The position numbers were made by a program, and so were the translations under genes. Under the pieces are notes generated by a model that did no database searches, was not told the origin of the DNA, and saw nothing but the letters and a program-made list of their open reading frames with translations. A DNA stretch of 64,000 nucleotides from NCBI GenBank assembly GCA_016189025.1, contig JACPGS010000018.1, positions 6,921 through 70,920 on the forward strand. The letters are read 5' to 3'. Every line of letters begins with the position of its first letter. Within the stretch, counting starts at the first letter, position 1. The stretch comes from Candidatus Magasanikiibacteriota bacterium. GTDB taxonomy: Bacteria > Patescibacteriota > Patescibacteriia > Magasanikbacterales > GWA2-37-8. Shown here one piece after another: positions 43,899-60,955 of this stretch.

Positions 43899-44705
43899 AT
43901 GCCTCCTGGCGTTCACGTCGTTCTTTTTTGTTTGCGTCAGTTGCACCGCCCGGCGCCGGAGAGCCACAAAGGCGACAACGGACGTCTCTTAATTATCGCC
44001 GGATCCAAAAAATATCACGGCTCGGTGGTGCTCGCCGCTACTATGGCGAGTAAATTGGTGGATTTAGTATACCTGGCCACCACGCCGGATAATTTTTCCC
44101 TGATTAAAAAAGTCCGGGAGCGTCTGGCCGAGTTTATTTACATTGCGCCCCGCGAGCTCCCCGCTACTCTTACCGAAGTTGACGCCGTGCTCATCGGCCC
44201 TGGGTTGTTACCCAACGCGGCCACGCGCCGCCTGGTGCAACGTCTGCTGCGCCAGTGGCCCGACAAAAAAATCATTCTGGACGCCGCGGCCCTGCGCGTG
44301 CTTGACCCGCGCTGGCTTCCTCGGCAGTGTATTATCACCCCCCACGCCGGCGAATTTCGCGCCTTGTTTCGCCTTGCCCCTACTCCCCCAAATGTCCAGG
44401 CGCTCTCGCGGCGTTACCCCGGCGTTATTGTCCTAAAAGGACGCGTAGATTATCTTGCTCAAGGCGGCCGGCTCTGGTATAACACTGCCGGCAATGCGGG
44501 AATGACCAAGGGCGGCACCGGCGATGTGCTGGCCGGTTTAATCGCGGCACTTGCCACAAAAAACGACCCGCTCCTCGCGGCGCAGGCCGGAGTGTATGTA
44601 AACGGCTTAGCGGGGGATAAGTTGTATAAAAAAGTTGGCTATCATTATAGCGCTTCGGAGTTAATGCCGGAAATTCGGAAAATTTTATCACGCTTTGATT
44701 ATTGA
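43899..44705 (+). CDS. nnr: ADP/ATP-dependent (S)-NAD(P)H-hydrate dehydratase (YjeF C-terminal / carbohydrate-kinase fold)
   Basis: HKGDNGRLLIIAGSKKYHGSVVLAA… and GGTGDVLAGLIAALA motifs. Start placed at the ATG 43899 beyond the MITE. Confidence 0.8.
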   Translation: MPPGVHVVLFCLRQLHRPAPESHKGDNGRLLIIAGSKKYHGSVVLAATMASKLVDLVYLATTPDNFSLIKKVRERLAEFIYIAPRELPATLTEVDAVLIGPGLLPNAATRRLVQRLLRQWPDKKIILDAAALRVLDPRWLPRQCIITPHAGEFRALFRLAPTPPNVQALSRRYPGVIVLKGRVDYLAQGGRLWYNTAGNAGMTKGGTGDVLAGLIAALATKNDPLLAAQAGVYVNGLAGDKLYKKVGYHYSASELMPEIRKILSRFDY

Positions 44706-44751
44706 TAGTAATCGGAGAAGCAGTGATGATTATCATTAATGTCGAGTAATT

Positions 44752-46200
44752 ATGAAGAAGTTAGCTATTCGAGACCCATTTTTGTTCGGCGAATGGTTTG
44801 ACCTAGGATGGTTTCACAGCTGTCATATCTATGGCCATACGATCACCATCAAGGAACGGCTTGGCTATGGGTTAAGTCAGGAAGTGGTAGAACAGGCAGG
44901 CACCATAGAGCGAATTTATTTTTCTCGCTCGGAGTGGACCAGAATTGGTAAGAAATACTTAAGCGAAGTTATCGCCAAACCTGCCAAGTTAAAAAAATTG
45001 CTCTCCGACCTGCGACGCGCTTCGAATCAGCTGCTGGTTTTCTCGCAAAAATTATTCACGGCTGATCCCGCCACCTTTTCCGGACAGCGGTTGGTACGCC
45101 TATTTGAGGCTTATCACGCGCGCCATCACGCGGTGTGGGCGATCGGTCAGGTGCCAAATGTATTGGAATTTCAAAATGCTTTCCTTACTGATTACCTTAA
45201 ACATTGGCTCGCCGGGCAGTCCCTTGCCGGAGCGGAACCGGTTAAAGTTTTTCAAACCTTGGTCACCCCCCGCGAACTTTCGGCCGCCCAGCAAGAGGAG
45301 CGCGCTATGCTGCGTCTGGCAGCGCAAAAAAATCCGGCGGTCGCTTTGCGCAAACATTGGCGCCAATTCAAGTGGCTGCAATTCGGCTGGACCGGCCCTG
45401 ATTTAACCCCGGAGTATTTTATTGACGTGCATCAGCGACTCTATAATGAAGGCCGGGTAAAATCAATTTTAAGCAAAACTTTACTAGCTGACCGGCAATT
45501 GGTGCGCGATAAAGAGCGACTAACAAAACAATTGCACTGCCCGCCTAAGATTAAGACTTTATTCCGCTTGCTGGAAGAACTGCTGTTCCTCAAATCGCAT
45601 CGGATGGATGCTCTCTACACTAGCTATAGCGCTATCCAGCCCTATTTAAAGCACCTGGCCCGCCGACATTATCTGGCGCTGCCGCAGTTATATAATCTTT
45701 ATCTGCCGGAATTAATCGCTATGTTGCGGCAGGGAGCAATTGATGCGGACTATCTTAATAATTTAGCCAAGTATTCGGTACGTTATTACGATGGCAAGCG
45801 TTGGTATTTACTCTTTGGTCAGGAAGCACGGCAAATAACCGAGGCAATCAAGCGTCGTCTGCCGCCTACCCCACTGCTCTCGGAACTTAAGGGAGAATGC
45901 GCCTATCCGGGCAAAGTTACCGGCAAGGTCTATATTATCAATCGGGCCGGGGAAATGGGCAAGTTTGAGTCGGGAGCAATTTTAGTTTCTAATATTACCG
46001 ACCCCTCGCTGTTGCCGGCCATGAAGCGGGCGGCAGCTTTCGTTACCAATACCGGCGGACTCACCTGCCACGCGGCGATTGTGGCGCGTGAGGTGCAAAT
46101 ACCCGGCGTCATCGGCACCAAAATTGCCACGCAAGCGCTCCGGGATGGCGATTTGGTAGAGGTAGACGCGACGGCGGGAGTGGTAAGGAAAATTAACTAA
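44752..46200 (+). CDS. PEP-utilising-enzyme phosphohistidine (swivel) domain protein, paralog 1; divergent N-domain, no ATP-binding domain
   Basis: C-terminus GECAYPGKVTGKVYII…ILVSNITDPSLLPAMKRAAAFVTNTGGLTCHAAIVAREVQIPGVIG…GDLVEVDA has the canonical PEP-utilizers mobile-domain His motif. Confidence 0.8.
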   Translation: MKKLAIRDPFLFGEWFDLGWFHSCHIYGHTITIKERLGYGLSQEVVEQAGTIERIYFSRSEWTRIGKKYLSEVIAKPAKLKKLLSDLRRASNQLLVFSQKLFTADPATFSGQRLVRLFEAYHARHHAVWAIGQVPNVLEFQNAFLTDYLKHWLAGQSLAGAEPVKVFQTLVTPRELSAAQQEERAMLRLAAQKNPAVALRKHWRQFKWLQFGWTGPDLTPEYFIDVHQRLYNEGRVKSILSKTLLADRQLVRDKERLTKQLHCPPKIKTLFRLLEELLFLKSHRMDALYTSYSAIQPYLKHLARRHYLALPQLYNLYLPELIAMLRQGAIDADYLNNLAKYSVRYYDGKRWYLLFGQEARQITEAIKRRLPPTPLLSELKGECAYPGKVTGKVYIINRAGEMGKFESGAILVSNITDPSLLPAMKRAAAFVTNTGGLTCHAAIVAREVQIPGVIGTKIATQALRDGDLVEVDATAGVVRKIN

Positions 46201-46203
46201 ACT

Positions 46204-47277
46204 ATGCTGGACACGGAAGTAGAAAAAATTGTGGCGGCCCTTGACTGGGAAAAACGCTGGATGGAGCGTTTTACCCTTTTTGCCACATCATTAATCGGCG
46301 ACGTCTATTTTTTTGGCTGTCAGGAGCAATTGGGAGTGGCATTCAACCGGATGTTCTTTGTTTACCAGGAAGGGATGGTTACGTGTTATCAGCTGATTTC
46401 AGAAAATACGGTCTTTGGCAACGCGCTGGCGCGCCGTTTGGAGGCGGATCACCATCTGGTTGATGGGTGGAACCGGGAAGTTAAAGATAAAGTTGATGAG
46501 GTTCTTAGTTTGGTTGCCGCCTACGAAGGCACCCTTTTTGAAGAGTCACACTACCTGGCTTTTGAGCACGCTTTTCGCGCACTGCAGCCACCCTTCGTTC
46601 GCTTAACCAGAGTCGCCAATTATCTGGCGCCGTCTTGGCACAATACTTTGTTGCCGCCACTGAATGCCATGCGTCTGGCCACGGAAACGGTATACGGCCG
46701 CGTTGATTCGTTTGTGCAGCGATCATTACGGCAATTAGCCGGCCAGATTGGCCGCGATCCTGATTTGGTAGAACTATTATATCATTATGAAGTGAGGGAA
46801 TTTGTTAAGCAGGGCACTTTGCCACCGGATGCCGAATTAAGAAGCCGTGCGCCGGTTAGCGGATTATATTTTGAAAACGGACGGCAATTCTTTTGTGATA
46901 GTAAAGAAGTTGGCTTATTTCAACGCCTGGTTGCCGATAAATTTGGCTCCCAGGATGGTATTGTTCGCGGGGTCACTGCGGTTCCCGGATATGTGAAGGG
47001 TACGGCGCGAATAATTTTTGACCCCCAAAAACCGGGTGTCTTTAATGACGGCGATATTCTGGTGACTAACATGACGTATCCGGAGTTTGTGCCCCTGATG
47101 AAAAAAGCCGGGGCGATTGTTACCGATGGCGGCGGCATTTTGTGCCACGCGGCCATTGTTGCTCGAGAATTGGGCAAACCCTGCCTGATCAATACCCAGG
47201 TAGCCACCTCGACTTTTCACGATGGTGAGCAGGTGGAGGTAGATGCGACGCAAGGAACAATCAAGAGAGCGGCATAG
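46204..47277 (+). CDS. PEP-utilising-enzyme swivel-domain protein, paralog 2 (shorter, distinct N-domain)
   Basis: …GVTAVPGYVKGTARII…ILVTNMTYPEFVPLMKKAGAIVTDGGGILCHAAIVARELGKPCLIN…GEQVEVDA. Confidence 0.8.
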   Translation: MLDTEVEKIVAALDWEKRWMERFTLFATSLIGDVYFFGCQEQLGVAFNRMFFVYQEGMVTCYQLISENTVFGNALARRLEADHHLVDGWNREVKDKVDEVLSLVAAYEGTLFEESHYLAFEHAFRALQPPFVRLTRVANYLAPSWHNTLLPPLNAMRLATETVYGRVDSFVQRSLRQLAGQIGRDPDLVELLYHYEVREFVKQGTLPPDAELRSRAPVSGLYFENGRQFFCDSKEVGLFQRLVADKFGSQDGIVRGVTAVPGYVKGTARIIFDPQKPGVFNDGDILVTNMTYPEFVPLMKKAGAIVTDGGGILCHAAIVARELGKPCLINTQVATSTFHDGEQVEVDATQGTIKRAA

Positions 47278-47280
47278 CCT

Positions 47281-48804
47281 ATGGAGCCTAAATACCTGCA
47301 CGACAACGACCCCTGGCTGCTCGCCGAGGACATCCCCGGCAGCGATTTGTTTTTCTTTCAAATTCCCTTTTGGTGTTTTGCCAACCGTTTCGGGGAACAA
47401 ACCGGACGAGCGTATAAAAAAGTTTTGGCTCATTTTTCCGGGTATCAGATGTGGTTTTATTTTGGCGAGCAGGATTCTTATGAAGTAGGGGAACATATCG
47501 TTAATCGGATTGTGGAACAGCCAGGCTATGGGGCGGATATTAACCAAAATATCATAGCGATAGCCGACAAATTACGCGCTTGGTGCGCCACCATTCCCGT
47601 GGAAAAACTCAATAATCTTTCCGACGCCGAGTTGTGGGAAATATATCACACGCATTACCAGCTCCATTGCGAATTTTACACCTGGGTATGGATCGGCAAT
47701 GCGACGGACATGTTCCATGCTAATTTTACCAACCGGCTAAAGGCTTACTTAAAACAAATCGGCGTGGTAGAAGACAAGATTAATGAGTATCTGGTTACTC
47801 TGACTACTCCCACCGCGCGAACGCCGGTCTTTGTGGAACAGCAGGATTTGTTGTTGATTGCGGAGCAAATATACCAGGATCAGGCGATCAGGCAGTTGTG
47901 CGCTACTTCCACTCCGCTGGTATACGAAGACCTCCCGCGCCGCCTGCAAACAATGATCCAACAGCACTGGGAGAAGTATCACTATACCAAATTTATTTTT
48001 GTGGAGGGCGAATATACCATTAATGATTATCTCCGGCAGCTGCAAGATATATTGCGCGGCGAAACTGCGCCGCGGGCGATTATTGAGGGACAAATAGAAG
48101 CGCTGCAGGCGGCGGAAGAAAAAAAGCGAATTCTTTTGGCGCAGTTGCCCGTTGCCCCGGAGTGGCAGGAGATATTTGCGGTTTTTGGCGACTTCATGGT
48201 AACCAAAATTTATCGTCGTTATGCCCAGCTTTTTGCCTTGCATCGCATGGATAAAGTTCTTAAGGAAATTGCCCGGCGCAAGCAGCTTTCCCTGAAACAG
48301 GTAAAATTCATGTTGAAAAGTGAAGTAGAGCGGTTGCTCCTCAAAAATTCCTGTGATCCGGAACTGTTGCGGGAACGCGCAAAGCAGTGCGTGTATTATG
48401 TGGAAAAAGATGGCGAGGCAGTATACGTCGGCCCGGCAGCCGAGGCCCTTATTGCAAAAACCGTTCGCACTATTGATGCCTCAATCAGTGAATTGAAGGG
48501 CGAAGTCGGGTGCACGGGTTATGCCCAGGGACGAGTAAAAATTGTTATTCGCGCCGAAGAGATGGCCAAGATGAACGACGGCGATATTTTGGTTTCTATC
48601 GCCACTGACCCGGACATTGTGCCGGCGATGAAAAAAGCCGCGGCGATTGTTACCGAACAGGGCGGCGTTACCAGCCACGCCGCCATTGTCAGCCGCGAGC
48701 TTGGCATCCCTTGCGTCATCGGCACCAAAATCGCCACCAAAATATTTAAGGACGGGGATTTGGTGGAAGTAGATGCGAATAGGGGAGTGGTGAGAAAAAT
48801 ATGA
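47281..48804 (+). CDS. PEP-utilising-enzyme swivel-domain protein, paralog 3
   Basis: …GEVGCTGYAQGRVKIV…ILVSIATDPDIVPAMKKAAAIVTEQGGVTSHAAIVSRELGIPCVIGTKIATKIFKDGDLVEVDA. Confidence 0.8.
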   Translation: MEPKYLHDNDPWLLAEDIPGSDLFFFQIPFWCFANRFGEQTGRAYKKVLAHFSGYQMWFYFGEQDSYEVGEHIVNRIVEQPGYGADINQNIIAIADKLRAWCATIPVEKLNNLSDAELWEIYHTHYQLHCEFYTWVWIGNATDMFHANFTNRLKAYLKQIGVVEDKINEYLVTLTTPTARTPVFVEQQDLLLIAEQIYQDQAIRQLCATSTPLVYEDLPRRLQTMIQQHWEKYHYTKFIFVEGEYTINDYLRQLQDILRGETAPRAIIEGQIEALQAAEEKKRILLAQLPVAPEWQEIFAVFGDFMVTKIYRRYAQLFALHRMDKVLKEIARRKQLSLKQVKFMLKSEVERLLLKNSCDPELLRERAKQCVYYVEKDGEAVYVGPAAEALIAKTVRTIDASISELKGEVGCTGYAQGRVKIVIRAEEMAKMNDGDILVSIATDPDIVPAMKKAAAIVTEQGGVTSHAAIVSRELGIPCVIGTKIATKIFKDGDLVEVDANRGVVRKI

Positions 48805-48865
48805 AGAAACGAATCTGGCGAAAAAATTTTGTTATCAGGAGCAGGGAATTTTTAGCCTGAATAAT

Positions 48866-50374
48866 ATGGCCCAGGACTACACCATCTTCGTCCGCGATTT
48901 TCAGACCAGCCTGTTTCCGCAGTATATTTTAACGCACTTGTGGAACACCAGCGGCGTGGTGAATACCAAAGCGCAGATTGGCATGGCGAATCGGAACAAA
49001 GTGCTGGAGTACATTATTCCGCCGGGCGATTGGGAACATTTGCAAACGCAGGTACATGAGCGAACTGCCGCCGACCGAAATTTTATTCCCCAGGCCGTGC
49101 GCCAGGCGCGGGCGGCCGTAGATGCACTTAATGAGTATACAGAACAGCAAATAGCGCAGAAAGATTTGACCTGCGCCAGCAACGAAGAATTAGCCGAGAT
49201 TTACCGGCGCTATTTTGAGCTGAACATTCCCTGTTATGGTTACGGCAACATCATTTTTATTATTGAATTCGGCGAGCGCGCTTATTTTAGCAATCAAATC
49301 AAGCAGCTCTTGGCCGCGCGTGCGCCGGAACAGCCGGCAGCGTATTTTACTTTACTGACCACTCCGGCGGAACCGCACATTTTTCAGGAGCAAAGTTTGG
49401 CTCTGCTCCAGCTGGCCAGCGCCATTGAATTGCAAACCGAGATTAAAGATTGGTTTTTGGCAAACGCCGGCGCGGGCATTGAACATCAGCTATTAGCGAA
49501 ATATCCGGCAGTGCTTGAGCAGTTCCAAAAACATCGCGCTGCCTACTACTGGCTGTTTTACAGCTGGGAAGGCCCGGCGCTGACGGTGGGCGATTTTGTG
49601 ATGTTTGCCGTGGATATTTTACGGCGCGGGTCGGCCGGCGCGCAGTTAGCAGAAAAAAAGGCAGAACAGGCCACGCTCGGCACGCGTCAGGAAAAGATTA
49701 TGCAGGAGCTGCACTTTTCCGAAGAAGAGCGCTGGTGGGTAAAAATGGCGCAACTATGCGCCGCGTTCCAGCCCTATCGCAAAGCGCGGCAATTCAAATC
49801 CTGCAGCCACATGGAAAAGTATTTCCGGGAGGTAGCGCGGCGATTATATATCAGTCTGGATCAGGCGCGGTATCTTACTCATTACGAAGTTGCCGAGGCG
49901 CTACGCAAGGGCGAAGTAGACACTAACCTGCTAAACGAACGCCGCAAATTTTTTGTGTATATTTTTGATAATAACCAGCCGCGGTGTCTTACCGGTTCCC
50001 CAGCCGAAGCGTGGTATCAAGAACACGTGGCACAAGAGATGCATCAATTTTCCGGAGAACTACGCGGCACGGTCGCCTGCCCGGGCCGGGCCACGGGAAA
50101 AGTGCGGATGGTGAACAGTTACGAAGAAGGCCAACAGTTTCAGCCAGGTGAAATTTTAGTTTCATTTTCTACTAACCCCACCCTTCTGCCGGCGATGCGC
50201 CTGGCCGCGGCGATTATTACCGAAGAAGGCGGGCTCACCTGCCACGCGGCCATCGTCAGCCGCGAGCTCAACATCCCTTGCGTGGTGGGAATTAAGGGGA
50301 TTGTTTCCGGACTGCAAACTGGCGAAACAATAGAAGTGGATGCGATAAAAGGGTTAGTTAAAAAATTATCCTGA
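48866..50374 (+). CDS. PEP-utilising-enzyme swivel-domain protein, paralog 4
   Basis: …GTVACPGRATGKVRMV…ILVSFSTNPTLLPAMRLAAAIITEEGGLTCHAAIVSRELNIPCVVG…GETIEVDA. Confidence 0.8.
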   Translation: MAQDYTIFVRDFQTSLFPQYILTHLWNTSGVVNTKAQIGMANRNKVLEYIIPPGDWEHLQTQVHERTAADRNFIPQAVRQARAAVDALNEYTEQQIAQKDLTCASNEELAEIYRRYFELNIPCYGYGNIIFIIEFGERAYFSNQIKQLLAARAPEQPAAYFTLLTTPAEPHIFQEQSLALLQLASAIELQTEIKDWFLANAGAGIEHQLLAKYPAVLEQFQKHRAAYYWLFYSWEGPALTVGDFVMFAVDILRRGSAGAQLAEKKAEQATLGTRQEKIMQELHFSEEERWWVKMAQLCAAFQPYRKARQFKSCSHMEKYFREVARRLYISLDQARYLTHYEVAEALRKGEVDTNLLNERRKFFVYIFDNNQPRCLTGSPAEAWYQEHVAQEMHQFSGELRGTVACPGRATGKVRMVNSYEEGQQFQPGEILVSFSTNPTLLPAMRLAAAIITEEGGLTCHAAIVSRELNIPCVVGIKGIVSGLQTGETIEVDAIKGLVKKLS

Positions 50375-50381
50375 TAACATT

Positions 50382-51947
50382 ATGGCGATGGCCAAGGCGC
50401 TACGGCGCGATCGCTGGATTGTCGGCAATGAAGAAGACGGCACTAATTTGTACGCGCTCGGTTTGTATACGCCGATGTTTATTGTTGATTTTCCCCGGCT
50501 GGCCCAAGCGCCGCCTTGCTATCACGTATTTGAATTCAAAGGCGGCCATATGCGCTGGCTGGTGCCGGAAAATCACTCGCTCGCAATCGCCCGGCTTTTG
50601 TTGGAGCGCGTCCTCCGGCGTCCTAATTATTTTGGCGAAATCAGGCAAAAATTGGCGCGCATTTGCCATCAGGCTTATGCTTTTGGCAGGCAAGTTTTGC
50701 GGCTGAAAGTAGGAACTATCAGCGACGCCAGGTTATTATCACTACTGATGCGTTTTCAAAAATTGCAACGCACCATTATCGCCTATGGCATGATTTCTAC
50801 TTTAGTTGAAATACCCCACAGCCAGTTTGTTAAGCACCTGGAGAATTTTCTGGCTGATCACGTCAGCAAAATTAGCGCGCCGCCTGGCGCCCCTGAATAT
50901 TTTAGTATTCTTTCGGCGATTCCCGAAGAGAGTAGGCAGCGCCAGGAAGCCAAAAGTTTGCTGCGGTTATTGCAGACGGTGAAAAAATCTAAAAAATTAT
51001 TTAACGCCGTCGCCTCACTTAAACCAGGGGAGGGTAGCAAAAAATTTTTACGGCCTCCAGGCGATCCGGCAATGTTATCCTTTTATCGGCAGCTCAATTA
51101 TCATGTCAAAGAATTCTGCTGGGCGTATTATGGCTACGAAGGACCGGCGTACGGTATTGACCGCCCCCTTTCCGAGCTTGCCCAACTGCTCTCCGATAAA
51201 GTAGACCCGGCGGCGGAGCTAAAGCGTTTAGCCCGGGAGCGGGCGCAAATCAGGCCGGCGACCAAAATAGCCGAGCGTACCCTGAAGCTATCGGCTTACG
51301 AGCGCGCCTTATTCCAGGCCCTGCGCGATACGGTGTTTATGAAGCTTTATCGCAAAGACGCCATGACTTTTGGGTTTTATTCCGCCGAGTCATTGCTTAA
51401 AGAATTGGCGCGCCGGGCCGGCATTGCTTTAGCCGCCGCTAAATGTTTGGCGCCGGGCGAATATGCGCGGGCATTGAGGCAGGACAAAAAATTGATTGCC
51501 GAACTCTATCGGCGGATTCCGTATGCCGTATATGCGGCGGATTCTCTTAAACCGCGGGTATTATCCGGTAGTCGCGCCCGCCGGTTTATTAAAAGTATTT
51601 ACCGCGAGGAAGCGGTCGGCGATGTCCGCGAGCTCAAAGGCCAGGTGGCCTGTTTAGGGCACGCTACCGGCGCGGTAAAAATTATCAACGTCGCGGCGGA
51701 AATGGGCAAAATGAATAAGGGCGATATTTTAGTGTCCATCGCCACGATTCCCGATATTGTGCCGGCGATGAAAAAGGCGGCCGCGATTGTTACCGAGCAG
51801 GGCGGCATTACCTCTCACGCCGCCATCGTCAGCCGCGAACTCGGCGTCCCCTGCGTCATCGGCACCAAAATAGCCACCAAAGTATTTAAGGACGGGGATT
51901 TGGTAGAGGTGGATGCCATTGAGGGAATTGTGTACAAGCTCAAGTGA
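50382..51947 (+). CDS. PEP-utilising-enzyme swivel-domain protein, paralog 5
   Basis: …GQVACLGHATGAVKII…ILVSIATIPDIVPAMKKAAAIVTEQGGITSHAAIVSRELGVPCVIGTKIATKVFKDGDLVEVDA. Confidence 0.8.
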   Translation: MAMAKALRRDRWIVGNEEDGTNLYALGLYTPMFIVDFPRLAQAPPCYHVFEFKGGHMRWLVPENHSLAIARLLLERVLRRPNYFGEIRQKLARICHQAYAFGRQVLRLKVGTISDARLLSLLMRFQKLQRTIIAYGMISTLVEIPHSQFVKHLENFLADHVSKISAPPGAPEYFSILSAIPEESRQRQEAKSLLRLLQTVKKSKKLFNAVASLKPGEGSKKFLRPPGDPAMLSFYRQLNYHVKEFCWAYYGYEGPAYGIDRPLSELAQLLSDKVDPAAELKRLARERAQIRPATKIAERTLKLSAYERALFQALRDTVFMKLYRKDAMTFGFYSAESLLKELARRAGIALAAAKCLAPGEYARALRQDKKLIAELYRRIPYAVYAADSLKPRVLSGSRARRFIKSIYREEAVGDVRELKGQVACLGHATGAVKIINVAAEMGKMNKGDILVSIATIPDIVPAMKKAAAIVTEQGGITSHAAIVSRELGVPCVIGTKIATKVFKDGDLVEVDAIEGIVYKLK

Positions 51948-52540: not shown

Positions 52541-52822
52541 ATGGCACTGGGGCAGCTGACGTTAGCGGTATACGGCGACGTGCAGGGCGTGGGGTTCCGC
52601 TGGTTTGTGCAAGAGCAGGCGGTTAAGCTCGGTCTAGTCGGCTGGGTACGCAATAATCCGGATGGTACGGTCGGCGTCGTTGCCCAAGGAGTCGAGGAAA
52701 AGTTGCGTGAATTTTTGGCGCTCTGCCGCCACGGCCCGGGTTTTGCCCGCGTGCGCGAGGCGGTGGAAGAGTGGCAGGAAATTCCTAAACTGGACTTTGT
52801 CGATTTTGAGATTAAGTTTTGA
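52541..52822 (+). CDS. acyP: Acylphosphatase
   Basis: VYGDVQGVGFRWFVQEQAVKLGLVGWVRNNPDGTVGVVAQG is the canonical acylphosphatase signature (VxGxVQGVxFR … GWVxN). Confidence 0.85.
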   Translation: MALGQLTLAVYGDVQGVGFRWFVQEQAVKLGLVGWVRNNPDGTVGVVAQGVEEKLREFLALCRHGPGFARVREAVEEWQEIPKLDFVDFEIKF

Positions 52823-52834
52823 TAGTGTTGCCAT

Positions 52835-54370: not shown

Positions 54371-54377
54371 ATTTTCT

Positions 54378-54998
54378 ATGATTGCCAAAAAAAATATTAA
54401 ATTCATTATCTTTGACGCCTACGGCGTCTGCCTTACCGGCGGGTATCCGGATACCTGCCGGTATCTGGCCAAAAAGTTTAACCGCGATTGGCAAGATATT
54501 TACGCTGTCCTTTATACCAAATATTTCAATCAGGCCGCTACTAAGCAAATCACCCAACAGGCGGCCTGGGCCAAGGCGCTTAAAGAGCTTAATTTTCCCT
54601 TAACAGTGGCCGCGGTTAAGCGGATTCATTATCGTCTGATGGGTTTGAATTGGCCGGTACTGAAAATTGTGCAAAAAATAAGCGAAAAAGTTCCTGTTCT
54701 GTTGTTAAGCAAAAATACGCGGAGCCAATTCAAAGACATTAATAATAAATTTCCCCGGTTGAGGCAAATTTTTGGCCAGCACATTATTAATACCTGGGAG
54801 TATAACCTGCCTAAAGCCAGCCCGGAAACGCTAGCGATGATTTTTAAGCGATATCATATTACCGACCCGGCCACGGTAGTGAGCATTGATGACCAAGACA
54901 ATAATTTAGTGGCGGCGCGGGAATTGGGCGTTAATGCTATTTTGTATAGAAATTTTGGTCAATTCAAGCGCGAGCTTGCTCGGCTGATTAACATTTAG
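54378..54998 (+). CDS. HAD-superfamily phosphatase
   Basis: Motif I IIFDAYGV and motif IV SIDDQDNN. Start placed at the internal ATG 54378. Confidence 0.65.
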   Translation: MIAKKNIKFIIFDAYGVCLTGGYPDTCRYLAKKFNRDWQDIYAVLYTKYFNQAATKQITQQAAWAKALKELNFPLTVAAVKRIHYRLMGLNWPVLKIVQKISEKVPVLLLSKNTRSQFKDINNKFPRLRQIFGQHIINTWEYNLPKASPETLAMIFKRYHITDPATVVSIDDQDNNLVAARELGVNAILYRNFGQFKRELARLINI

Positions 54999-55002
54999 AG
55001 CT

Positions 55003-56529
55003 ATGCGCCAGAAATATCATCAGGGTGCATGGTCGCTCTTGTCGCAGCGCCAGCGAATGAGCCCGTTTCCCAATTACTTGTCCATGGAAGCGGTGTGCCG
55101 CGAGATGAAGCAGTTCGTCGGTATCGCGTTGCGCGACGTTATTTTATTTTTCCAGGGCAATATCATGTTTGCTTTTCAGCCTTTGCTGTCGCACCAGCGC
55201 GCGGCGCGCTTGATTGCCGACCGCGTGCAAAAAAATCCGCGCCTGTATGCTGGTTTGATTAAAAAACAACATGGCTACGGAAAAAATTTAGTAAACTTTG
55301 CCCGGCAGGCGGCGCGCCAGACTAGGCGGGGCAAGGCTTCTCCCCAGCAATTATGCGATTGGTTTACCGGCTACGCCCAGCGATATAAATTAGTTTATGC
55401 CTCGTACGGGTCGGTTTGGACAATGGAAGACGAGCTAGTCGGAGATCTTTATGCGCTGGTGGAAAAGCGAATAAAAGATCCGCTTGAGGCCAGCAATATC
55501 TTAAATACGCTCACCAAACAGCCGCTGGCGATGGTGGTCACCCGCGAACGCCAGGCATTATTGAAAATGGCAATGAGCATTGCTTTACATCAGGAATGGC
55601 AGCAGGCGGTGAGGGCCGGCGAGTGGTCAGGGATTAAAAAGTATCAGCCGCTCCTCCGACTGATTACCGCGCACCAGAAAAAATTTTACTGGATCACCCG
55701 CGATTATGAAGATCCAATTTTGACTAATGAAAAAATTATTGAGCGGCTGCGGCAGGTATTGGCAGGTGATGTTGCCCAAGAATATCGTCAATTAACAGAT
55801 GCTTTAGCCAATGACCTCGCGGCGAGAAAGCGCTATGAAAAAGAACTACGGCTCACGGCGGCAGAACGCCAACTCTTTGCCGCGATGCGCGATGCCGCCC
55901 ATCTTAAAGAGCTGCGCAAACAATATGTTTCATCATCGCTTTATCATTTTGATTCAGTACTGGCCGAGATCGGGAAACATTTGTATTTAAGCATCAAGCA
56001 AGTGCGCTTTATGCATACCGCAGATGTCGCCGCGGCCCTGCTTAAAGGTCGGGATTTAACCCGGGCGCTTAACGAGCGGATGAAACTATCAATGTGGCAT
56101 ACGGTGGATGGCCGCGATACCAAAGTCAGTGTCGGCCCGGAGGCCGCGGCAATGTTTGCCCGGTTTTGTACGGTGGATAAGAATACCAGAGAATTTACCG
56201 GCATGCCGGTTTCCCCTGGGTTGGCGCGCGGCCCTGCTAGGTTGGTGATGAATCCGGACGAGTGCGACAAGGTTCAGAAAGGTGATATTATTGTGAGCAT
56301 TCAGGTGGTGCCGAGTTTTTCCACCGCTATTATCAAATCCGCCGGCATGGTCTGCGACGGCGGGCACGGCATCACTTCGCACCCGGCCACCCTGGCCCGC
56401 GAAGCCAAAATACCCTGCGTTATCCAAACCCGCTTTGCGCGGGAGGTAGTGAAAGATGGTGATATTCTGGAGGTAGATGGGTATCAGGGTGTGGTACGAA
56501 TTATTGACAAAAAGGATGCCGGGAGATGA
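55003..56529 (+). CDS. PEP-utilising-enzyme swivel-domain protein, paralog 7
   Basis: …GMPVSPGLARGPARLV…IIVSIQVVPSFSTAIIKSAGMVCDGGHGITSHPATLAREAKIPCVIQ…GDILEVDG is a variant His motif (SHPATLARE). Confidence 0.75.
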   Translation: MRQKYHQGAWSLLSQRQRMSPFPNYLSMEAVCREMKQFVGIALRDVILFFQGNIMFAFQPLLSHQRAARLIADRVQKNPRLYAGLIKKQHGYGKNLVNFARQAARQTRRGKASPQQLCDWFTGYAQRYKLVYASYGSVWTMEDELVGDLYALVEKRIKDPLEASNILNTLTKQPLAMVVTRERQALLKMAMSIALHQEWQQAVRAGEWSGIKKYQPLLRLITAHQKKFYWITRDYEDPILTNEKIIERLRQVLAGDVAQEYRQLTDALANDLAARKRYEKELRLTAAERQLFAAMRDAAHLKELRKQYVSSSLYHFDSVLAEIGKHLYLSIKQVRFMHTADVAAALLKGRDLTRALNERMKLSMWHTVDGRDTKVSVGPEAAAMFARFCTVDKNTREFTGMPVSPGLARGPARLVMNPDECDKVQKGDIIVSIQVVPSFSTAIIKSAGMVCDGGHGITSHPATLAREAKIPCVIQTRFAREVVKDGDILEVDGYQGVVRIIDKKDAGR

Positions 56530-56580: not shown

Positions 56581-56708
56581 GTCATCTCACAATTCTTCAG
56601 AGAATAATCGTAAGACGAACCGGGCGACGTGATGACAGTACATTGTCATCACGCCGCCCGAGCTCTGGGGATGAGTTGCCCCGGGCGGGGCAGAGGAGGG
56701 GAGGGGGG

Positions 56709-57389: not shown

Positions 57390-57634
57390 GGCGACCCTCC
57401 TTTTTTGTGGTTTCCCGGCCATTTGTGCCTGCTGCCGAATCATTTCGGTTCAGGTGTGCCTTGGCCAAAGGCGAATAGGTTCTCAAGAGAAATTACTATC
57501 TCCCCTGGGAACCTACCGCCTTTGACTTATGGTAGCCCTTGATTGTAAAAGTACTCATCCGTTATGACTCTAGGATAGCAGCGCGTTAAGCACTGCTTTT
57601 TCATCATCATAACGTCATATAATAGCACATTTTC

Positions 57635-57727: not shown

Positions 57728-58600
57728 ATGCCTAGAGAATTATCAGCCGAACCACAACGGGAGCAAGAACGCCGGCCGGAAAATTTTATCACGGCCTATT
57801 ATATGCGCCACGGTGAAAGTTCATCTGATAAAAATGATCCGTTGCGCGGGTTAACCGATAAAGGGATAGAGCAGGTACGAAAGGCAGTAGAGCGGGTAGC
57901 GTCAGAAATTCCCGATAAGAATTCACAAATTCGGCTATATAGCAGTGGCAGCGAACGCACCCGGCAGCAGTGCATTGTGGCGGCTGCGGTGTTACGCGAT
58001 GCCAATTTTACCAATATCACGATTGATGCCAATTCTTTGCCCGAAAAGCGCGCCGAGTTAACCGGCAAGGGAGTGCGCTTCACCAAAATCCTTTCCGGCG
58101 ATGAATTAAAAGAAGCGCAGGCAGCGACGATTGCCCAGTTAGGTTTGCGCCAAGAGGGCCCCGGCATTGGCAAAAGAATCGCGGAACTCAAAGCGCCTAA
58201 AGAATATCCGACTAAACTTAGGGGGTTGGAGGCTGATACCGGGATTAGTGCGGTAGTCCATTGGCTAACGGATAAAGAAGTGCCGGCCGGAGCAGAATCG
58301 CGAGCGCAAAAAGCTGCCACGGTAGCTAAAGCAGTAGAGATTGCCAATCGCTGGGCAGAGCACATGCGCCGCGCTGCGGAAAAAGGCAAAGAAGTTAAGC
58401 CAATGGTGGCTTTAGCATTCGGTCATTCTTCGGCGCTCACTGCCTATGGCGCTGATGTTTTTGGCTGGCAAGGTGAAGAGTTGGCAGAGGTAGAAAACGC
58501 CGAAGGATTAAAAATAGATTTCTCTGGTATTGCCGACGAAACACCCCGTATTCAGCCATTCGGCGAGAAGATTGAGGCCAAGGTAAATCCTATCGGATAA
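57728..58600 (+). CDS. Histidine-phosphatase-superfamily protein (phosphoglycerate-mutase / SixA-like)
   Basis: FITAYYMRHGESSSDKNDPLRGLTDKGIEQ is the RHG catalytic motif, and VALAFGHSSALTAY is the second catalytic His. Confidence 0.8.
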   Translation: MPRELSAEPQREQERRPENFITAYYMRHGESSSDKNDPLRGLTDKGIEQVRKAVERVASEIPDKNSQIRLYSSGSERTRQQCIVAAAVLRDANFTNITIDANSLPEKRAELTGKGVRFTKILSGDELKEAQAATIAQLGLRQEGPGIGKRIAELKAPKEYPTKLRGLEADTGISAVVHWLTDKEVPAGAESRAQKAATVAKAVEIANRWAEHMRRAAEKGKEVKPMVALAFGHSSALTAYGADVFGWQGEELAEVENAEGLKIDFSGIADETPRIQPFGEKIEAKVNPIG

Positions 58601-58641
58601 TCAAAGAGATTGTATCCAAAAATTCCCTTGATATTTATAAA

Positions 58642-58672
58642 ACCCTGGACTTTTTGGTTCAGGGTCCTTTTT
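58642..58672 (+). terminator. Rho-independent terminator
   Basis: ACCCTGgactttttggttCAGGGTccttttt. Confidence 0.5.
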
Positions 58673-58705
58673 AATATCTCACTCGTGAGAAACTAAAGAG
58701 GGGTG

Positions 58706-58739
58706 CCGAGCGGGGGGAGATGAACTTCCCCCCGCTCGG
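58706..58739 (-). terminator. Hairpin terminator downstream of the minus-strand G+C-rich gene
   Basis: CCGAGCGGGGGGAgatgaacTTCCCCCCGCTCGG, a 13-bp perfect stem. Confidence 0.5.
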
Positions 58740-58756
58740 TAGATTGGGTGAGGTTG

Positions 58757-59662: not shown

Positions 59663-59894
59663 TGGTATCTCCGCGCTTGGCCGTGGTATTGCTAGGTTCC
59701 TTCTCCGGCCGTTAAGAAGGTAGCTAGCCAGTGAAGATCTTCTTCACCGTTTAGCTACCTTCTTTAATCATTTTTTGGGGCGCTTTCGGAGTTAGGATGT
59801 CAAGGTACTCACCGGTTACGGCTGGCAGCCTAGCGCTTAAGTGGGGCGCCGGAATAGGCCGCACCGCCATAACTTTACAGCTTACCCCCTGCCT

Positions 59895-59922
59895 TTACTT
59901 TCGTCAAGAGCTTGAGTATAAT
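59895..59922 (+). promoter_or_regulatory. Candidate promoter TTTACT-16-TATAAT with tCGTCAAGAG in the spacer
   Basis: The GTCAAGAG octamer lies 3 nt after the -35 hexamer, identical to its placement at 57643. Confidence 0.4.
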
Positions 59923-59941
59923 GGCTTGTGCATAACTTAAT

Positions 59942-60955
59942 ATGTCGCATTTAAAATTTTTTCCCGATCTTACCAAAAAAGATGTGGCAATAGCCGGCGG
60001 CAAGGGCGCGTCGCTCGGCGAACTGACGCGAGCCGGAATTCCGGTGCCGCCCGGGTTTGTGGTGCTGGCGGCGGCTTGGGACAGATTTTTAGAAGAAACC
60101 GATCTTAATGCCGAAATTATGGCGCGACTCAAAGAGGTTAATCCGGCTGATACCAATTCAGTGGATCGGGCCAGCAATGTTTTGCGTGATGCGATTCATG
60201 ATCGGTCGCTGCCGGCTGATTTAGGCGAGGAGATTTTGGCGGCGTTTGACGAGTTAGGGAGTAAAAAGTCGGGGGCTCGGAATGACAGCGCGTGTTTGGT
60301 AGCGGTGCGATCGAGCGCGACCGCCGAGGACTCGGCAGTGGCGAGCTGGGCCGGTGAGCTGGAAACGTATTTGAACACCAGGCGGGAAAATGTTTTAGAG
60401 CGAGTGAAACTATGCTGGTCGTCGCTTTTTACCCCGCGCGCTATTTTTTATCGCCACGAAAAAAATCTGATTGATCATTATGTATCGGTCGCGGTAGTAG
60501 TGCAGCAAATGGTGCAATCAGAAATCTCCGGCATTGCTTTTACCGTGCATCCGGTAACCGAGGACCGGGACCAGATGATTATTGAAGCGGGATTTGGCCT
60601 CGGCGAAGCGATTGTCGGCGGCCAGATTACGCCGGACTCGTATGTAGTAAGCAAGAGCGAGATGAGTATTATTGATATTAATGTTAGTACCCAGACCAGA
60701 AAGTTAGTGAAAAAGGTAAAAGGGGGAAAGGGACAAACCGACGAGGAAAATAAGTCTAACGAATGGGTAGATTTGAGTGAAGCGGAAGGAGGCCGGCAAA
60801 AGTTAAGCGGCCAGCAGATTATTGAGCTGGCGGCGATTTGCCAGAGGATTGAAAAACATTACGGATTCCCCTGCGACATTGAGTGGGCGTATGAGGGGGG
60901 AAAATTCTACGTTACCCAAAGCCGGCCGATTACGACCTTAAAAATCCGCGGTTAA
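59942..60955 (+). CDS. Stand-alone PEP-synthase / pyruvate-phosphate-dikinase-type N-terminal ATP-binding (ATP-grasp) domain protein
   Basis: …DVAIAGGKGASLGELTRAGIPVPPGFVV…CLVAVRSSATAEDSAVASWAGELETYLN…SGIAFTVHPVT…QMIIEAGFGLGEAIVGG…GFPCDIEWAYEGGKFYVTQSRPIT matches PPDK_N motifs throughout. It ends without a His domain or a PEP-binding domain. Confidence 0.8.
   Translation: MSHLKFFPDLTKKDVAIAGGKGASLGELTRAGIPVPPGFVVLAAAWDRFLEETDLNAEIMARLKEVNPADTNSVDRASNVLRDAIHDRSLPADLGEEILAAFDELGSKKSGARNDSACLVAVRSSATAEDSAVASWAGELETYLNTRRENVLERVKLCWSSLFTPRAIFYRHEKNLIDHYVSVAVVVQQMVQSEISGIAFTVHPVTEDRDQMIIEAGFGLGEAIVGGQITPDSYVVSKSEMSIIDINVSTQTRKLVKKVKGGKGQTDEENKSNEWVDLSEAEGGRQKLSGQQIIELAAICQRIEKHYGFPCDIEWAYEGGKFYVTQSRPITTLKIRG

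What the first reader, a model, noticed from the sequence alone, without database searches (positions are those of the whole stretch)
43899..60955. Split, multi-paralog PEP-synthase / rifampin-phosphotransferase-like system: seven tandem 'substrate-domain + phosphohistidine swivel-domain' proteins plus one stand-alone ATP-binding domain
Seen: seven consecutive same-strand ORFs (44752, 46204, 47281, 48866, 50382, 52835, 55003) all end in the canonical PEP-utilising-enzyme mobile-domain His motif (GG(L/V/I)T(C/S)HAAIV(A/S)RE…P(C/G)V(I/V)G) preceded by the G-x-x-x-G-x-x-G linker. Each has a different ~250-400-aa N-terminal domain and none has an ATP-binding domain. 3.4 kb downstream (59942..60955) a separate gene encodes only the PPDK_N/PEP-synthase ATP-binding domain. 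Established: rifampin phosphotransferase and PEP synthase are single polypeptides in which the ATP-binding domain phosphorylates the swivel-domain His, which then transfers phosphate to a substrate bound by a third domain. In rifampin phosphotransferase that third domain binds the drug. Inference: this locus is a disassembled version in which one shared kinase module could charge seven different carrier/substrate-binding modules. That would be a combinatorial small-molecule (or macromolecule) phosphorylation or inactivation system. The divergent N-domains with conserved C-domains resemble a target-recognition repertoire, as seen in resistance or immunity loci. I know of no described system with this architecture.
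Basis: partly seen in the sequence, partly recalled or inferred. Interest (0 to 1): 0.9.

Follow-up and report, generated by a model that had tools for sequence, protein, structure and literature searches.

The report
One kinase engine, seven acceptor proteins
A tiny-genome (Candidate Phyla Radiation, CPR) bacterium carries seven diverged copies of the "substrate-pocket plus phosphate-carrying histidine" half of a rifampin-phosphotransferase-type kinase and only one copy of the ATP-binding half; this one-to-many version of a known split enzyme is common in such bacteria, and its substrates are unknown.

Summary
Seven same-strand genes (44752-56529) each end in a PF00391 phosphohistidine swivel domain. 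One gene (59942-60955) encodes only a complete PF01326 ATP-grasp domain.

The seven N-terminal parts are very diverged paralogs of one helical fold (12-23% identity), not unrelated domains. Structure models match only rifampin phosphotransferase over their whole length, through its drug-binding domain. No ATP-grasp is hidden in them.

The layout is not an accident of this genome:
- The ATP-grasp gene is stand-alone in 79 of 80 CPR species sampled.
- It usually sits just downstream of 1-6 swivel genes on the same strand.
- Rare natural fusions join one ATP-grasp to 2-4 acceptor modules in one protein.

Two-component dikinases (PpsAB, CreHI, HpeHI) are characterised, always as 1:1 pairs.

What appears new:
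- the one-to-many array;
- its spread across CPR, with the acceptor family also in DPANN archaea (at least 4,065 sequence clusters);
- recurrent embedded or fused HAD and histidine-phosphatase genes.

The resistance/immunity reading is not supported. Substrates remain unknown. This is a new variant of a known kind, of moderately high interest.

The parts
44752..46200 (+). W1, acceptor subunit (482 aa): RPH-like helical substrate domain plus C-terminal swivel domain, His440
   Evidence: PF00391 E 1.6e-23 at residues 405-476. N-domain profile E 3.7e-111. Ortholog at 50% identity in L001.
46204..47277 (+). W2, short-form acceptor subunit (357 aa), His315; swivel motif GGILCH
47281..48804 (+). W3, acceptor subunit (507 aa), the most widely conserved subfamily; His466; Arg312 invariant
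48866..50374 (+). W4, acceptor subunit (502 aa), His460
   Evidence: PF00391 E 9.5e-24. N-domain profile E 2.1e-120. NCBIfam RPH model aligns residues 330-499 to RPH 697-862.
50382..51947 (+). W5, acceptor subunit (521 aa), His479
   Evidence: PF00391 E 1.9e-24. N-domain profile E 1.4e-115. Its swivel is 80% identical in protein and 81% in DNA to that of W3.
52541..52823 (+). Acylphosphatase (93 aa), just upstream of W6; a possible accessory gene
   Evidence: PF00708 E 1.8e-25. A homolog lies near the ATP-grasp gene in only 3 of 80 loci, so the link is weak.
52835..54370 (+). W6, acceptor subunit (511 aa), His470
   Evidence: PF00391 E 2.4e-25. N-domain profile E 2.5e-103. Lies in a low-GC segment (0.43).
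54339..54998 (+). HAD-superfamily protein (219 aa), overlapping the 3' end of W6 by 32 nt; recurrent accessory gene
   Evidence: PF00702 E 3.5e-6. A homologous ~200-aa HAD family is found in 14 loci, and 14 of its 15 genes lie inside arrays. HAD is fused to an acceptor module in P0267 and P0174.
55003..56529 (+). W7, acceptor subunit (508 aa), His460, with the most deviant swivel (HGITSHPATLARE)
   Evidence: PF00391 E 3e-14. N-domain profile E 3.1e-118. Ortholog at 58% identity in L001. NCBIfam PRK06241.1-3 aligns residues 236-502 to model positions 618-890.
57728..58600 (+). Histidine-phosphatase-superfamily protein (290 aa, RHG motif) between the array and the ATP-grasp gene; recurrent accessory gene type
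   Evidence: PF00300 E 2.5e-6, above the gathering score. His_Phos_1 genes sit in the same position in L001 and L002. RHG-motif families occur in 14, 10 and 7 of the 80 loci, mostly inside the arrays.
59942..60955 (+). Stand-alone ATP-grasp (nucleotide-binding) subunit, 337 aa; the proposed shared phosphoryl donor for W1-W7
   Evidence: PF01326 E 1.8e-95. Aligns to PEP synthase 8a8e residues 6-363, to the RPH ATP-grasp construct 5hv6 residues 20-327, and to the 387-aa chain 9goj_A. Orthologs at 57-82% identity and 314-324 aa in L001, L003, L005 and L006. Promoter-like site at 59894-59922.

Best explanation
This is a one-to-many, two-component small-molecule dikinase system of the rifampin-phosphotransferase / phenylphosphate-synthase type.

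Proposed mechanism:
1. The 337-aa ATP-grasp protein (59942-60955) binds ATP.
2. The mobile swivel domain of any acceptor protein W1-W7 docks on it. Its conserved His attacks the beta-phosphate and, after loss of the gamma-phosphate as Pi, carries one phosphoryl group (ATP -> AMP + Pi + His~P).
3. The swivel swings back onto its own helical N-domain. There an invariant Arg (W3 R312, W2 R157) positions the phosphoryl group.
4. The phosphoryl group passes to a hydroxyl (or similar nucleophile) of a small molecule held in that paralog's pocket.

Because the pockets have diverged to 12-23% identity while the swivels stay at about 51%, each paralog probably phosphorylates a different compound with the same ATP engine. 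The embedded HAD, histidine-phosphatase-type and acylphosphatase genes probably process the phosphorylated products, as phosphatases or mutases, or reset the phospho-His.

The most likely biological role is housekeeping: phosphorylating, and so trapping or activating, several metabolites in an organism with a very small genome. It is unlikely to be drug resistance.

Shown computationally: domain content, folds, conserved His and Arg, synteny and gene fusions. Inferred: every chemical step, the sharing of the ATP-grasp protein, and the nature of the substrates.
For: - Domain division matches the characterised two-component dikinases. HpeI, PpsB and CreI are an ATP-grasp alone. HpeH, PpsA and CreH are a rifampin-binding-like domain plus swivel. 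His-to-Gln abolishes activity, and no stable complex forms (PMC12167813; PMC6114531).
- ATP-grasp. It is complete, ends at the canonical domain boundary, and is highly conserved (57-82%).
- Synteny, 80 species. The ATP-grasp gene is stand-alone in 79. Of 53 loci with at least 8 kb upstream, 45 carry 1-6 full-length swivel genes. Of 153 swivel genes, 147 lie upstream and 152 on the same strand. The median gap to the nearest one is 58 bp. Searches show the same.
- Fusions. P0122 is 3x(N+S) + PPDK_N + (N+S). P0241 is PPDK_N + 2x(N+S). The L085 ORF is ATP-grasp + N+S + N+S.
- Conserved Arg. It lies 154 residues (W3) and 158 residues (W2) upstream of the His. The essential Arg666 of RPH lies 159 residues upstream of His825 (PMC4844700).
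- Conservation pattern. The swivel is far more conserved than the N-domain, as expected if all paralogs must dock on one partner.
- Phosphatase link. HAD and His_Phos_1 are the only gene families recurrently found inside arrays, and HAD is fused to acceptor modules.
Against: - No biochemical data exist for any member of this family.
- In this window the ATP-grasp gene is 3.4 kb from the array, separated by three genes (two on the opposite strand), and probably has its own promoter.
- Eight of 53 loci with enough upstream sequence have no swivel gene within 10 kb.
- Two DPANN loci with acceptor genes have no ATP-grasp within 10 kb. The partnership is therefore not always encoded in cis, and another donor cannot be excluded there.
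- The N-domain has no sequence-level match to any solved structure, so the pocket and the Arg equivalence rest on models and spacing.
- Whether one ATP-grasp really charges all seven paralogs, or only some, is untested.
- I could not check that this genome has no second ATP-grasp gene outside the 64-kb window.
Confidence: 0.7

Rival explanations
1. Xenobiotic or antibiotic inactivation repertoire. The mechanism is the same, but the seven pockets recognise toxins or antibiotics from hosts or competitors, and phosphorylation inactivates them as in rifampin phosphotransferase.
For: - The only structural relative of the acceptor domain is the drug-binding domain of RPH.
- N-domains are extremely diverse: 162 proteins fall into 73 clusters at 33% identity or more, with 44 singletons including W2, W4, W5 and W6.
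- W6-HAD-W7 lie in a low-GC segment next to a MazF toxin gene, which hints at horizontal acquisition.
- A survey has counted rph-like genes in CPR genomes (PMC8651080).
Against: - The W3 subfamily is conserved at 44-56% identity across CPR phyla and into a Nanoarchaeote. W1, W7 and the W2 short form also have orthologs.
- Arrays sit among core genes: ribosomal proteins, pentose-phosphate enzymes, tRNA modification.
- Phosphatase-family genes are embedded in or fused to the arrays, and a phosphatase would undo an inactivating phosphorylation.
- There is no PADLOC hit.
- NCBIfam RPH models score 53-74 bits against a cutoff of 999.
Confidence: 0.12
2. Phosphorelay or regulatory system. The phospho-His is passed to proteins or serves as a signal rather than to small molecules. 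The histidine-phosphatase-family proteins would then act as SixA-like phospho-His phosphatases that reset the carriers.
For: - Free-standing 104-106 aa swivel-only proteins with the conserved His lie just upstream of the ATP-grasp gene in six loci.
- P0207 carries a response-regulator receiver domain between two acceptor modules.
- His_Phos_1 genes recur inside arrays.
- The swivel fold is shared with PTS Enzyme I.
Against: - Every full-length paralog keeps a large RPH-like pocket domain with an invariant Arg at the spacing of the catalytic Arg666 of RPH.
- The characterised relatives all phosphorylate small molecules.
- No HPr-like or EIIA-like acceptor gene is seen in the Pfam-annotated contexts.
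Confidence: 0.08
3. Not a system at all. The ATP-grasp ORF would be a fragment or remnant of a PEP synthase gene, and the swivel genes would be unrelated or decaying paralogs that happen to be nearby.
For: - Public annotations call the ATP-grasp protein 'phosphoenolpyruvate synthase' or 'pyruvate, water dikinase'.
- It lies 3.4 kb from the array, with opposite-strand ORFs between.
Against: - The ATP-grasp domain is complete.
- The 120 best homologs are all 318-413 aa with PPDK_N as their only Pfam domain.
- 79 of 80 species have it stand-alone, mostly directly abutting swivel genes.
- No PEP-utilizers_C TIM-barrel gene appears in any annotated context.
- All seven paralogs are intact ORFs with the catalytic His, and two of them gave AF2 models with pLDDT of 92 or more.
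- The fusion proteins link the two parts.
Confidence: 0.02

Closest known systems
Two-component small-molecule dikinases: phenylphosphate synthase PpsAB(C) of Thauera aromatica, CreHI of Corynebacterium glutamicum, HpeHI of Rhodococcus rhodochrous
   Same: - The gene-level split is identical: a ~40-kDa ATP-grasp-only subunit, plus a separate subunit with an RPH-like substrate-binding domain followed by a C-terminal swivel domain carrying the catalytic His.
- The mechanism is ATP -> AMP + Pi + substrate-phosphate through a (pyro)phospho-His.
[quoted passage not shown]
(PMC12167813; PMC6114531)
   Different: - Those systems are 1:1 pairs in aromatic-degrading Proteobacteria and Actinobacteria. 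Here seven acceptor genes accompany one ATP-grasp gene, in CPR.
- Acceptor subunits here are ~500 aa (short form 357 aa), against ~70 kDa.
- NCBIfam PRK08296-type models match only the swivel and linker (57-95 bits, cutoffs 578-730).
- The residue two before the His is Thr, as in PEP synthase, in six of seven paralogs. It is Met in HpeH, CreH and PpsA.
- The ATP-grasp is closer to PEP synthase (249 bits) than to 9goj_A (186 bits), a 387-aa ATP-grasp-only chain that I assume, without checking, is HpeI.
- No phenol-catabolic genes are nearby; phosphatase-family genes are.
Rifampin phosphotransferase (RPH; PDB 5HV1, 5FBS/T/U)
   Same: - It is the only solved structure that matches the acceptor proteins over their whole length (drug-binding domain plus swivel).
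- The ATP-grasp protein aligns end to end with the RPH ATP-grasp domain (E 3e-57).
- A conserved Arg lies ~155-159 residues upstream of the catalytic His, as does the essential Arg666.
   Different: - RPH is a single 867-aa chain ordered ATP-grasp, RIF-binding domain, swivel. Here the ATP-grasp is a separate gene.
- Identity is only 16-22% in structural alignments.
- The N-domain profile has no sequence hit to RPH.
- NCBIfam RPH models lie far below cutoff.
- There is no evidence for rifamycin as a substrate.
PEP synthase (pyruvate, water dikinase) and pyruvate phosphate dikinase
   Same: They are the best sequence matches for both the ATP-grasp (NF005057, 335 bits) and the swivel domains (65-129 bits), including the GGxT(S/C)H motif with the regulatory-type Thr.
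   Different: - No PEP/pyruvate-binding TIM barrel (PEP-utilizers_C) occurs anywhere in the window's eight proteins or in the annotated related loci.
- The third domain is the RPH-type helical domain, placed N-terminal to the swivel.
- All scores are far below the equivalog cutoffs (598 and 739.75).
- Database names such as 'phosphoenolpyruvate synthase' for these CPR proteins are therefore misleading.

Membership tests
Two-component small-molecule dikinases (PpsAB / CreHI / HpeHI type) | ATP-grasp (PPDK_N) domain encoded as a separate polypeptide without swivel or substrate domain | tested here: met
   The 59942-60955 product is PF01326 only and complete. It is stand-alone in 79 of 80 species, and all 120 best homologs are 318-413 aa.
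Two-component small-molecule dikinases (PpsAB / CreHI / HpeHI type) | Acceptor subunit = RPH rifampin-binding-like domain followed by a C-terminal swivel domain with the catalytic His | tested here: met
   AF2 models of W3 and W2 have RPH as their best or only whole-length match. PF00391 is C-terminal in all seven, and the His is present in all seven.
Two-component small-molecule dikinases (PpsAB / CreHI / HpeHI type) | Sequence-level membership of the acceptor subunit in the PpsA/CreH/HpeH clade (~45% mutual identity; ~600-aa PRK08296-type models) | tested here: not met
   NCBIfam PRK08296.1-x models match only residues ~350-505 (swivel and linker), at 57-95 bits against cutoffs of 578-730. 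That the PRK08296 models represent the PpsA clade is my assumption.
Two-component small-molecule dikinases (PpsAB / CreHI / HpeHI type) | One acceptor subunit per ATP-grasp subunit (1:1 gene pair) | tested here: not met
   Seven acceptor genes to one ATP-grasp gene in the window. Related CPR loci have 1-6 to one.
Two-component small-molecule dikinases (PpsAB / CreHI / HpeHI type) | ATP-dependent phosphorylation of a phenolic or small-molecule hydroxyl, yielding AMP + Pi, abolished by mutating the His | not testable with these tools
   Requires purified proteins. See the next steps.
Rifampin phosphotransferase (RPH) family | Single chain: ATP-grasp, then RIF-binding domain, then swivel; NCBIfam NF041857 at 999 bits or more | tested here: not met
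   The domains are on separate genes. Paralogs score 53-74 bits and the ATP-grasp 280 bits.
PEP synthase / PPDK | C-terminal PEP/pyruvate-binding TIM barrel (PEP-utilizers_C) and equivalog-level score | tested here: not met
   No such domain is found in any of the eight proteins. TIGR01418 gives at most 326 bits against a cutoff of 739.75.
Known anti-phage defence systems (PADLOC-DB 2.0) | Match of any component to a defence-system model | tested here: not met
   No hits for 10 proteins of the locus at E <= 0.01.

The most novel reading that the evidence does not exclude
CPR bacteria, and in dispersed form DPANN archaea, use a modular kinase platform: one ATP-grasp engine charges a genome-specific set of 1-7 exchangeable acceptor proteins. 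Each acceptor, often with its own HAD or histidine-phosphatase-type partner, captures or activates a different scavenged metabolite. The platform would stand in for conventional kinases that these reduced genomes lack and would explain part of how episymbionts feed on host-derived compounds. Free-standing swivel-only carriers and the short-form acceptors would be further modules of the same platform.
Probability: 0.3. Interest if true: 0.8.

Novelty: new variant of a known kind. Interest (0 to 1): 0.62.

Why it matters
- **Investment.** Genomes of this group are small (related assemblies here include a 977-kb complete chromosome). This one spends about 11 kb on eight genes of a single enzyme system. 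The acceptor family comprises at least 4,065 clusters at 50% identity, yet I found no paper on it in the searchable library.
- **Annotation.** Public records name these proteins 'phosphoenolpyruvate synthase', 'pyruvate, water dikinase' or 'PEP-utilizing enzyme'. Metabolic reconstructions of CPR and DPANN organisms may therefore wrongly credit them with PEP synthesis or gluconeogenesis.
- **Enzymology.** If one ATP-grasp subunit really charges several different acceptor subunits, this would be, as far as I could find, the first dikinase with a shared nucleotide-binding component. That would be a natural example of combinatorial enzyme modularity and a possible scaffold for engineering kinases for new small molecules.
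- **Physiology.** Identifying the substrates would fill gaps in the poorly understood metabolism of these mostly uncultivated lineages.

Tried and rejected
- **Cryptic ATP-grasp in the N-domains.** Rejected. The W3 model is all-helical over residues 63-368 and matches the RPH drug-binding domain.
- **ATP-grasp ORF as a gene fragment or assembly artefact.** Rejected.
- **Split PEP synthase.** Rejected. No TIM-barrel domain occurs in the window proteins or the related loci.
- **Known defence system.** No PADLOC hits.
- **Sequence link of the N-domain to any solved structure.** A 23-sequence N-domain profile found nothing in the PDB (best E 0.38, spurious). The link to RPH is by fold, plus short collinear NCBIfam extensions.
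- **Riboswitch or other RNA clue to the ligand.** No Rfam match in the window. Seven related loci gave only tRNAs. There are no tRNA genes in the window.
- **Foldseek against the AlphaFold database.** The library was unavailable.
- **ATP-grasp partner in DPANN archaea.** None within 10 kb in two loci, by Pfam labels and by tblastn. This is unresolved, not disproved.
- **Literature on this family in CPR/DPANN.** Six searches found only a resistome survey that counts rph-like hits.
- **Accessory genes by synteny.** VirD4-like, HIT, zf_Tbcl_2, HD and MnmA genes recur only at array edges in Magasanikbacteria-type loci, so I treat them as lineage synteny rather than parts of the system.
- **Not possible with these tools.** Complex prediction (AlphaFold-multimer) and a whole-genome count of ATP-grasp genes.

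Full report
**1. What is in the sequence**

The window carries seven same-strand ORFs, labelled here W1-W7:

| Label | Coordinates | Length |
|---|---|---|
| W1 | 44752-46200 | 482 aa |
| W2 | 46204-47277 | 357 aa |
| W3 | 47281-48804 | 507 aa |
| W4 | 48866-50374 | 502 aa |
| W5 | 50382-51947 | 521 aa |
| W6 | 52835-54370 | 511 aa |
| W7 | 55003-56529 | 508 aa |

- Each matches Pfam PF00391 (PEP-utilising enzyme, mobile domain) over its last ~72 residues (E 3e-14 to 4e-27) and matches no other Pfam family.
- The ORF at 59942-60955 (337 aa) matches only PF01326 PPDK_N (E 1.8e-95).
- A six-frame HMM scan of the whole 64-kb window finds exactly these seven swivel ORFs and this one ATP-grasp ORF.
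- W1-W5 are packed with gaps of 3, 3, 61 and 7 bp.
- A PemK/MazF-like ORF (51944-52360) and an acylphosphatase (52541-52823; PF00708, E 1.8e-25) separate W5 from W6. A HAD-family ORF (54339-54998) lies between W6 and W7.
- Three ORFs lie between W7 and the ATP-grasp gene. One (57728-58600) belongs to the histidine-phosphatase superfamily.
- The organism is a Candidatus Magasanikbacteria bacterium (CPR/Patescibacteria). W2, W3 and the ATP-grasp protein have 100%-identical database entries from such a genome assembly.

**2. The seven N-terminal parts are one fold, deeply diverged**

- They align with each other and all hit one N-domain profile (E 1e-103 to 1e-143; W2 only 3.5e-5).
- Pairwise identity is 12-23% (mean 18%) in the N-part, against 32-80% (mean 51%) in the swivel.
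- An AlphaFold2 model of W3, built on 50 sequences, is confident (pLDDT 92.4, pTM 0.88). Residues 63-368 are all helical, flanked by a small sheet made of N-terminal strands and strands 369-382.
- NCBIfam RPH-family models extend collinearly from the swivel into the preceding 70-270 residues.
- An N-domain-only profile has no sequence-level hit in the PDB.
- So the N-part corresponds to the RPH 'rifampin-binding' domain. It is not an ATP-grasp, and it is a very distant relative.
- One Arg is invariant in 23 N-domains (W3 R312). It lies 154 residues before the catalytic His. RPH Arg666, essential for the second phosphotransfer, lies 159 residues before His825 (PMC4844700). The equivalence is an inference from spacing.

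**3. The short form W2 is real**

- About 90 full-length homologs of 350-360 aa exist in CPR and in a Woesearchaeote.
- R157, E161, E196 and R215 are invariant. A Leu is invariant where the other paralogs have Thr (GGILCH).
- R157 lies 158 residues before His315.
- W2 looks like a minimised acceptor, not a pseudogene.

**4. The ATP-grasp gene is complete and normally stand-alone**

- It aligns from residue 4 to residue 334 with the ATP-grasp domains of PEP synthase (8a8e, 249 bits) and RPH (5hv6 construct, 197 bits), and with a 387-aa ATP-grasp-only chain (9goj_A, 186 bits). It ends at the canonical SRPITTLK boundary.
- The 120 best database homologs are all 318-413 aa with PPDK_N as their only Pfam domain.

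**5. The arrangement is conserved**

- Four CPR loci reached through W3 homologs carry 2-6 swivel genes plus one 314-324 aa PPDK_N gene.
- A scan of one genome per species, anchored on the ATP-grasp protein, returned 80 loci from different CPR assemblies: Magasanik-, Moran-, Doudna-, Falkow-, Buchanan-, Komeili- and Kuenenbacteria, and others.
- In 79 of them the ATP-grasp ORF is stand-alone.
- Of 53 loci with at least 8 kb of upstream sequence, 45 carry full-length swivel ORFs: one in 11 loci, two in 8, three in 7, four in 13, five in 3 and six in 3.
- Of 153 swivel ORFs, 147 lie upstream of the ATP-grasp gene and 152 are on the same strand. The median distance to the nearest one is 58 bp.
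- The window, with seven paralogs, has more than any of these sampled loci. Its ATP-grasp gene sits unusually far from the array (3.4 kb) and probably has its own promoter (TTTACT-17-TATAAT at 59894-59922).

**6. Gene fusions link the parts**

An N-domain-only profile built from the window's paralogs finds 4,065 cluster representatives (E <= 1e-3) among 1.84 billion proteins, mostly ~500 aa. The exceptions are informative (Pfam; N+S = N-domain plus swivel):

| Protein | Length | Architecture |
|---|---|---|
| P0121 | 1500 aa | three N+S modules |
| P0122 | 2309 aa | three N+S modules, PPDK_N, one more N+S |
| P0241 | 1306 aa | PPDK_N followed by two N+S |
| P0267 | 705 aa | HAD fused before N+S |
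| P0174 | 721 aa | HAD fused after N+S |
| P0207 | 1103 aa | receiver domain between two N+S modules |

In locus L085, one ORF runs ATP-grasp, N+S, N+S up to the contig end. One ATP-grasp domain with several acceptor modules in a single chain is direct comparative evidence for the one-to-many relationship.

**7. Accessory genes**

- I clustered every non-dikinase ORF in or next to the arrays of the 80 loci. The only families that recur inside arrays are phosphatase-type:
  - three histidine-phosphatase-like families with the RHG motif, in 14, 10 and 7 loci;
  - two HAD-like families, in 14 and 5 loci.
- The window has the same kinds: HAD, His_Phos_1 and an acylphosphatase.
- Recurrent edge genes (VirD4-like, HIT, zf_Tbcl_2, HD, MnmA) follow Magasanikbacteria synteny, and I do not count them as parts.
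- In a Parcubacteria locus and a Nanoarchaeote locus the arrays adjoin pentose-phosphate genes.

**8. Comparison with what is known**

- In phenylphosphate synthase, a 70-kDa alpha subunit carries the His and binds phenol. A 40-kDa beta subunit transfers a diphosphoryl group from ATP to that His (PMC6114531).
[quoted passage not shown] - HpeH is homologous to its rifampin-binding and swivel domains;
  - His-to-Gln abolishes activity;
  - the subunits form no stable complex.
- The CPR system has the same division of labour, but it is not a member of that clade by sequence:
  - PRK08296-type and RPH models match only the swivel region, far below their cutoffs;
  - both the ATP-grasp and the swivel are closest to PEP synthase;
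  - the regulatory-type Thr of PEP synthase is kept in six of seven paralogs, where HpeH, CreH and PpsA have Met.
- The known systems are 1:1 pairs. I found no description of a one-to-many array, or of this family in CPR or DPANN. One resistome survey merely counts rph-like hits. The search covers open-access papers and bioRxiv only.

**9. Most likely mechanism and role**

- By analogy with RPH and PpsAB, the ATP-grasp protein presents ATP. The swivel His of any paralog takes the beta-phosphoryl group, with the gamma-phosphate released as Pi and AMP as the other product.
- The swivel then returns to its own helical domain. There the conserved Arg positions the phosphoryl group for transfer to a bound small molecule.
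- The contrast between conserved swivels and diverged pockets fits several substrates served by one docking partner.
- I favour a housekeeping metabolic role, phosphorylating and so trapping or activating several compounds, over drug resistance, for four reasons:
  - W3-type proteins are conserved at 44-56% identity from CPR to a Nanoarchaeote;
  - W1, W2 and W7 have orthologs;
  - the arrays sit among core genes;
  - they are tied to phosphatase- or mutase-type enzymes.
- The N-domain diversity is nonetheless very large: 73 clusters among 162 proteins, with W2, W4, W5 and W6 as singletons at the 33% threshold. A partly adaptive, variable repertoire therefore cannot be excluded.
- The substrates are unknown, and every chemical step is inferred.

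**10. Caveats**

- Eight of 53 loci have no swivel gene near the ATP-grasp gene.
- Two DPANN loci have acceptor genes but no ATP-grasp within 10 kb.
- I could not count ATP-grasp genes across a whole genome or model the complex.
- No isolate name that I noticed appears twice among the 80 ATP-grasp loci. This is weakly consistent with one copy per genome.

**11. Verdict**

- The finding is a new variant (one-to-many, widespread in CPR, phosphatase-associated) of a known kind (two-component RPH-type dikinases).
- It is worth experimental follow-up, mainly because a very large uncharacterised and mis-annotated family sits in poorly understood, mostly uncultivated lineages.

Noticed in passing
L023:9623-9937, L026:514-834, L042:8772-9092, L050:5301-5618, L058:9684-9998, L061:9316-9630: Free-standing swivel-only proteins of 104-106 aa with the conserved HGG(I/V/L)TSH motif lie immediately upstream of the stand-alone ATP-grasp gene in six CPR loci. 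This is a third, fully separated module (phospho-His carrier alone). PF00391 E 9.5e-21 for the L058 example.
   Followed up: partly
window 48535-48792 and 51675-51932: The swivel-coding DNA of W3 and W5 is 81% identical over 258 nt (80% in protein), while their N-domains share 19% identity and the other paralogs' swivel DNA is 60-67% identical to W3's. This suggests gene conversion or a recent exchange of the swivel segment between paralogs.
   Followed up: partly
window 51944-52360: A PemK/MazF-like toxin ORF (PF02452, E 1.4e-11) overlaps the stop of W5 by 4 nt, in the middle of the array. No obvious antitoxin ORF was noticed. No homolog appears near the ATP-grasp gene in any of the 80 related loci.
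   Followed up: partly
window 52001-56000 versus 58001-60000: Composition is heterogeneous across the locus. GC is 0.43-0.47 over acylphosphatase, W6, HAD and the first part of W7, against 0.61 over the ORFs just upstream of the ATP-grasp gene. The window average is about 0.55. Part of the array may have been acquired separately.
   Followed up: no
window 56629-57542 and 58748-59695 (both strands): Long overlapping ORFs lie on both strands in the GC-rich stretch between W7 and the ATP-grasp gene. Examples are 56709-57443 (-, 244 aa) and 58757-59662 (-, 301 aa, with a Pro/Ala-rich tail). None has a Pfam hit, and at most one of the 80 related loci has a homolog. The numbering of the public locus tags implies three genes here. 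An 18-bp perfect hairpin lies at 56620-56661, just after W7.
   Followed up: partly
window 54339-54998: HAD motif I of the embedded HAD protein reads FDAYGV. The nucleophile Asp is present, but the Asp+2 general acid/base is replaced by Tyr (Thr in the L022 homolog, SDLTGV). It may therefore not be a canonical phosphatase.
   Followed up: no
window 41599-43695; L001:6313-8487; L006:6461-8422: A VirD4/TrwB-like coupling-protein homolog (PF10412) lies upstream of the array (directly adjacent in L001 and L006; an NAD(P)HX dehydratase gene intervenes in the window), preceded further upstream by HIT (and NUDIX in L001 and L006). The synteny is conserved in Magasanikbacteria-type loci (23 of 80 loci). 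A functional link to the dikinase genes is unknown.
   Followed up: partly
L003:587-7106 and L004:3608-10921: In a Parcubacteria locus and a Nanoarchaeote locus the swivel-gene arrays adjoin pentose-phosphate genes (G6PD/6PGD, transketolase, PGI, 6-phosphogluconolactonase-like). In the archaeon they also adjoin purine-synthesis genes, NUDIX and a low-molecular-weight phosphatase. This is a possible hint towards sugar or nucleotide substrates.
   Followed up: no
P0391-P0510 and P0050, P0305, P0383: Public records name the stand-alone ATP-grasp proteins 'Phosphoenolpyruvate synthase', 'pyruvate,water dikinase' or 'PEP/pyruvate-binding domain-containing protein'. Some acceptor proteins are named 'pyruvate, water dikinase'. 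None has a PEP/pyruvate-binding domain, so these names are likely systematic mis-annotations in CPR genomes.
   Followed up: partly
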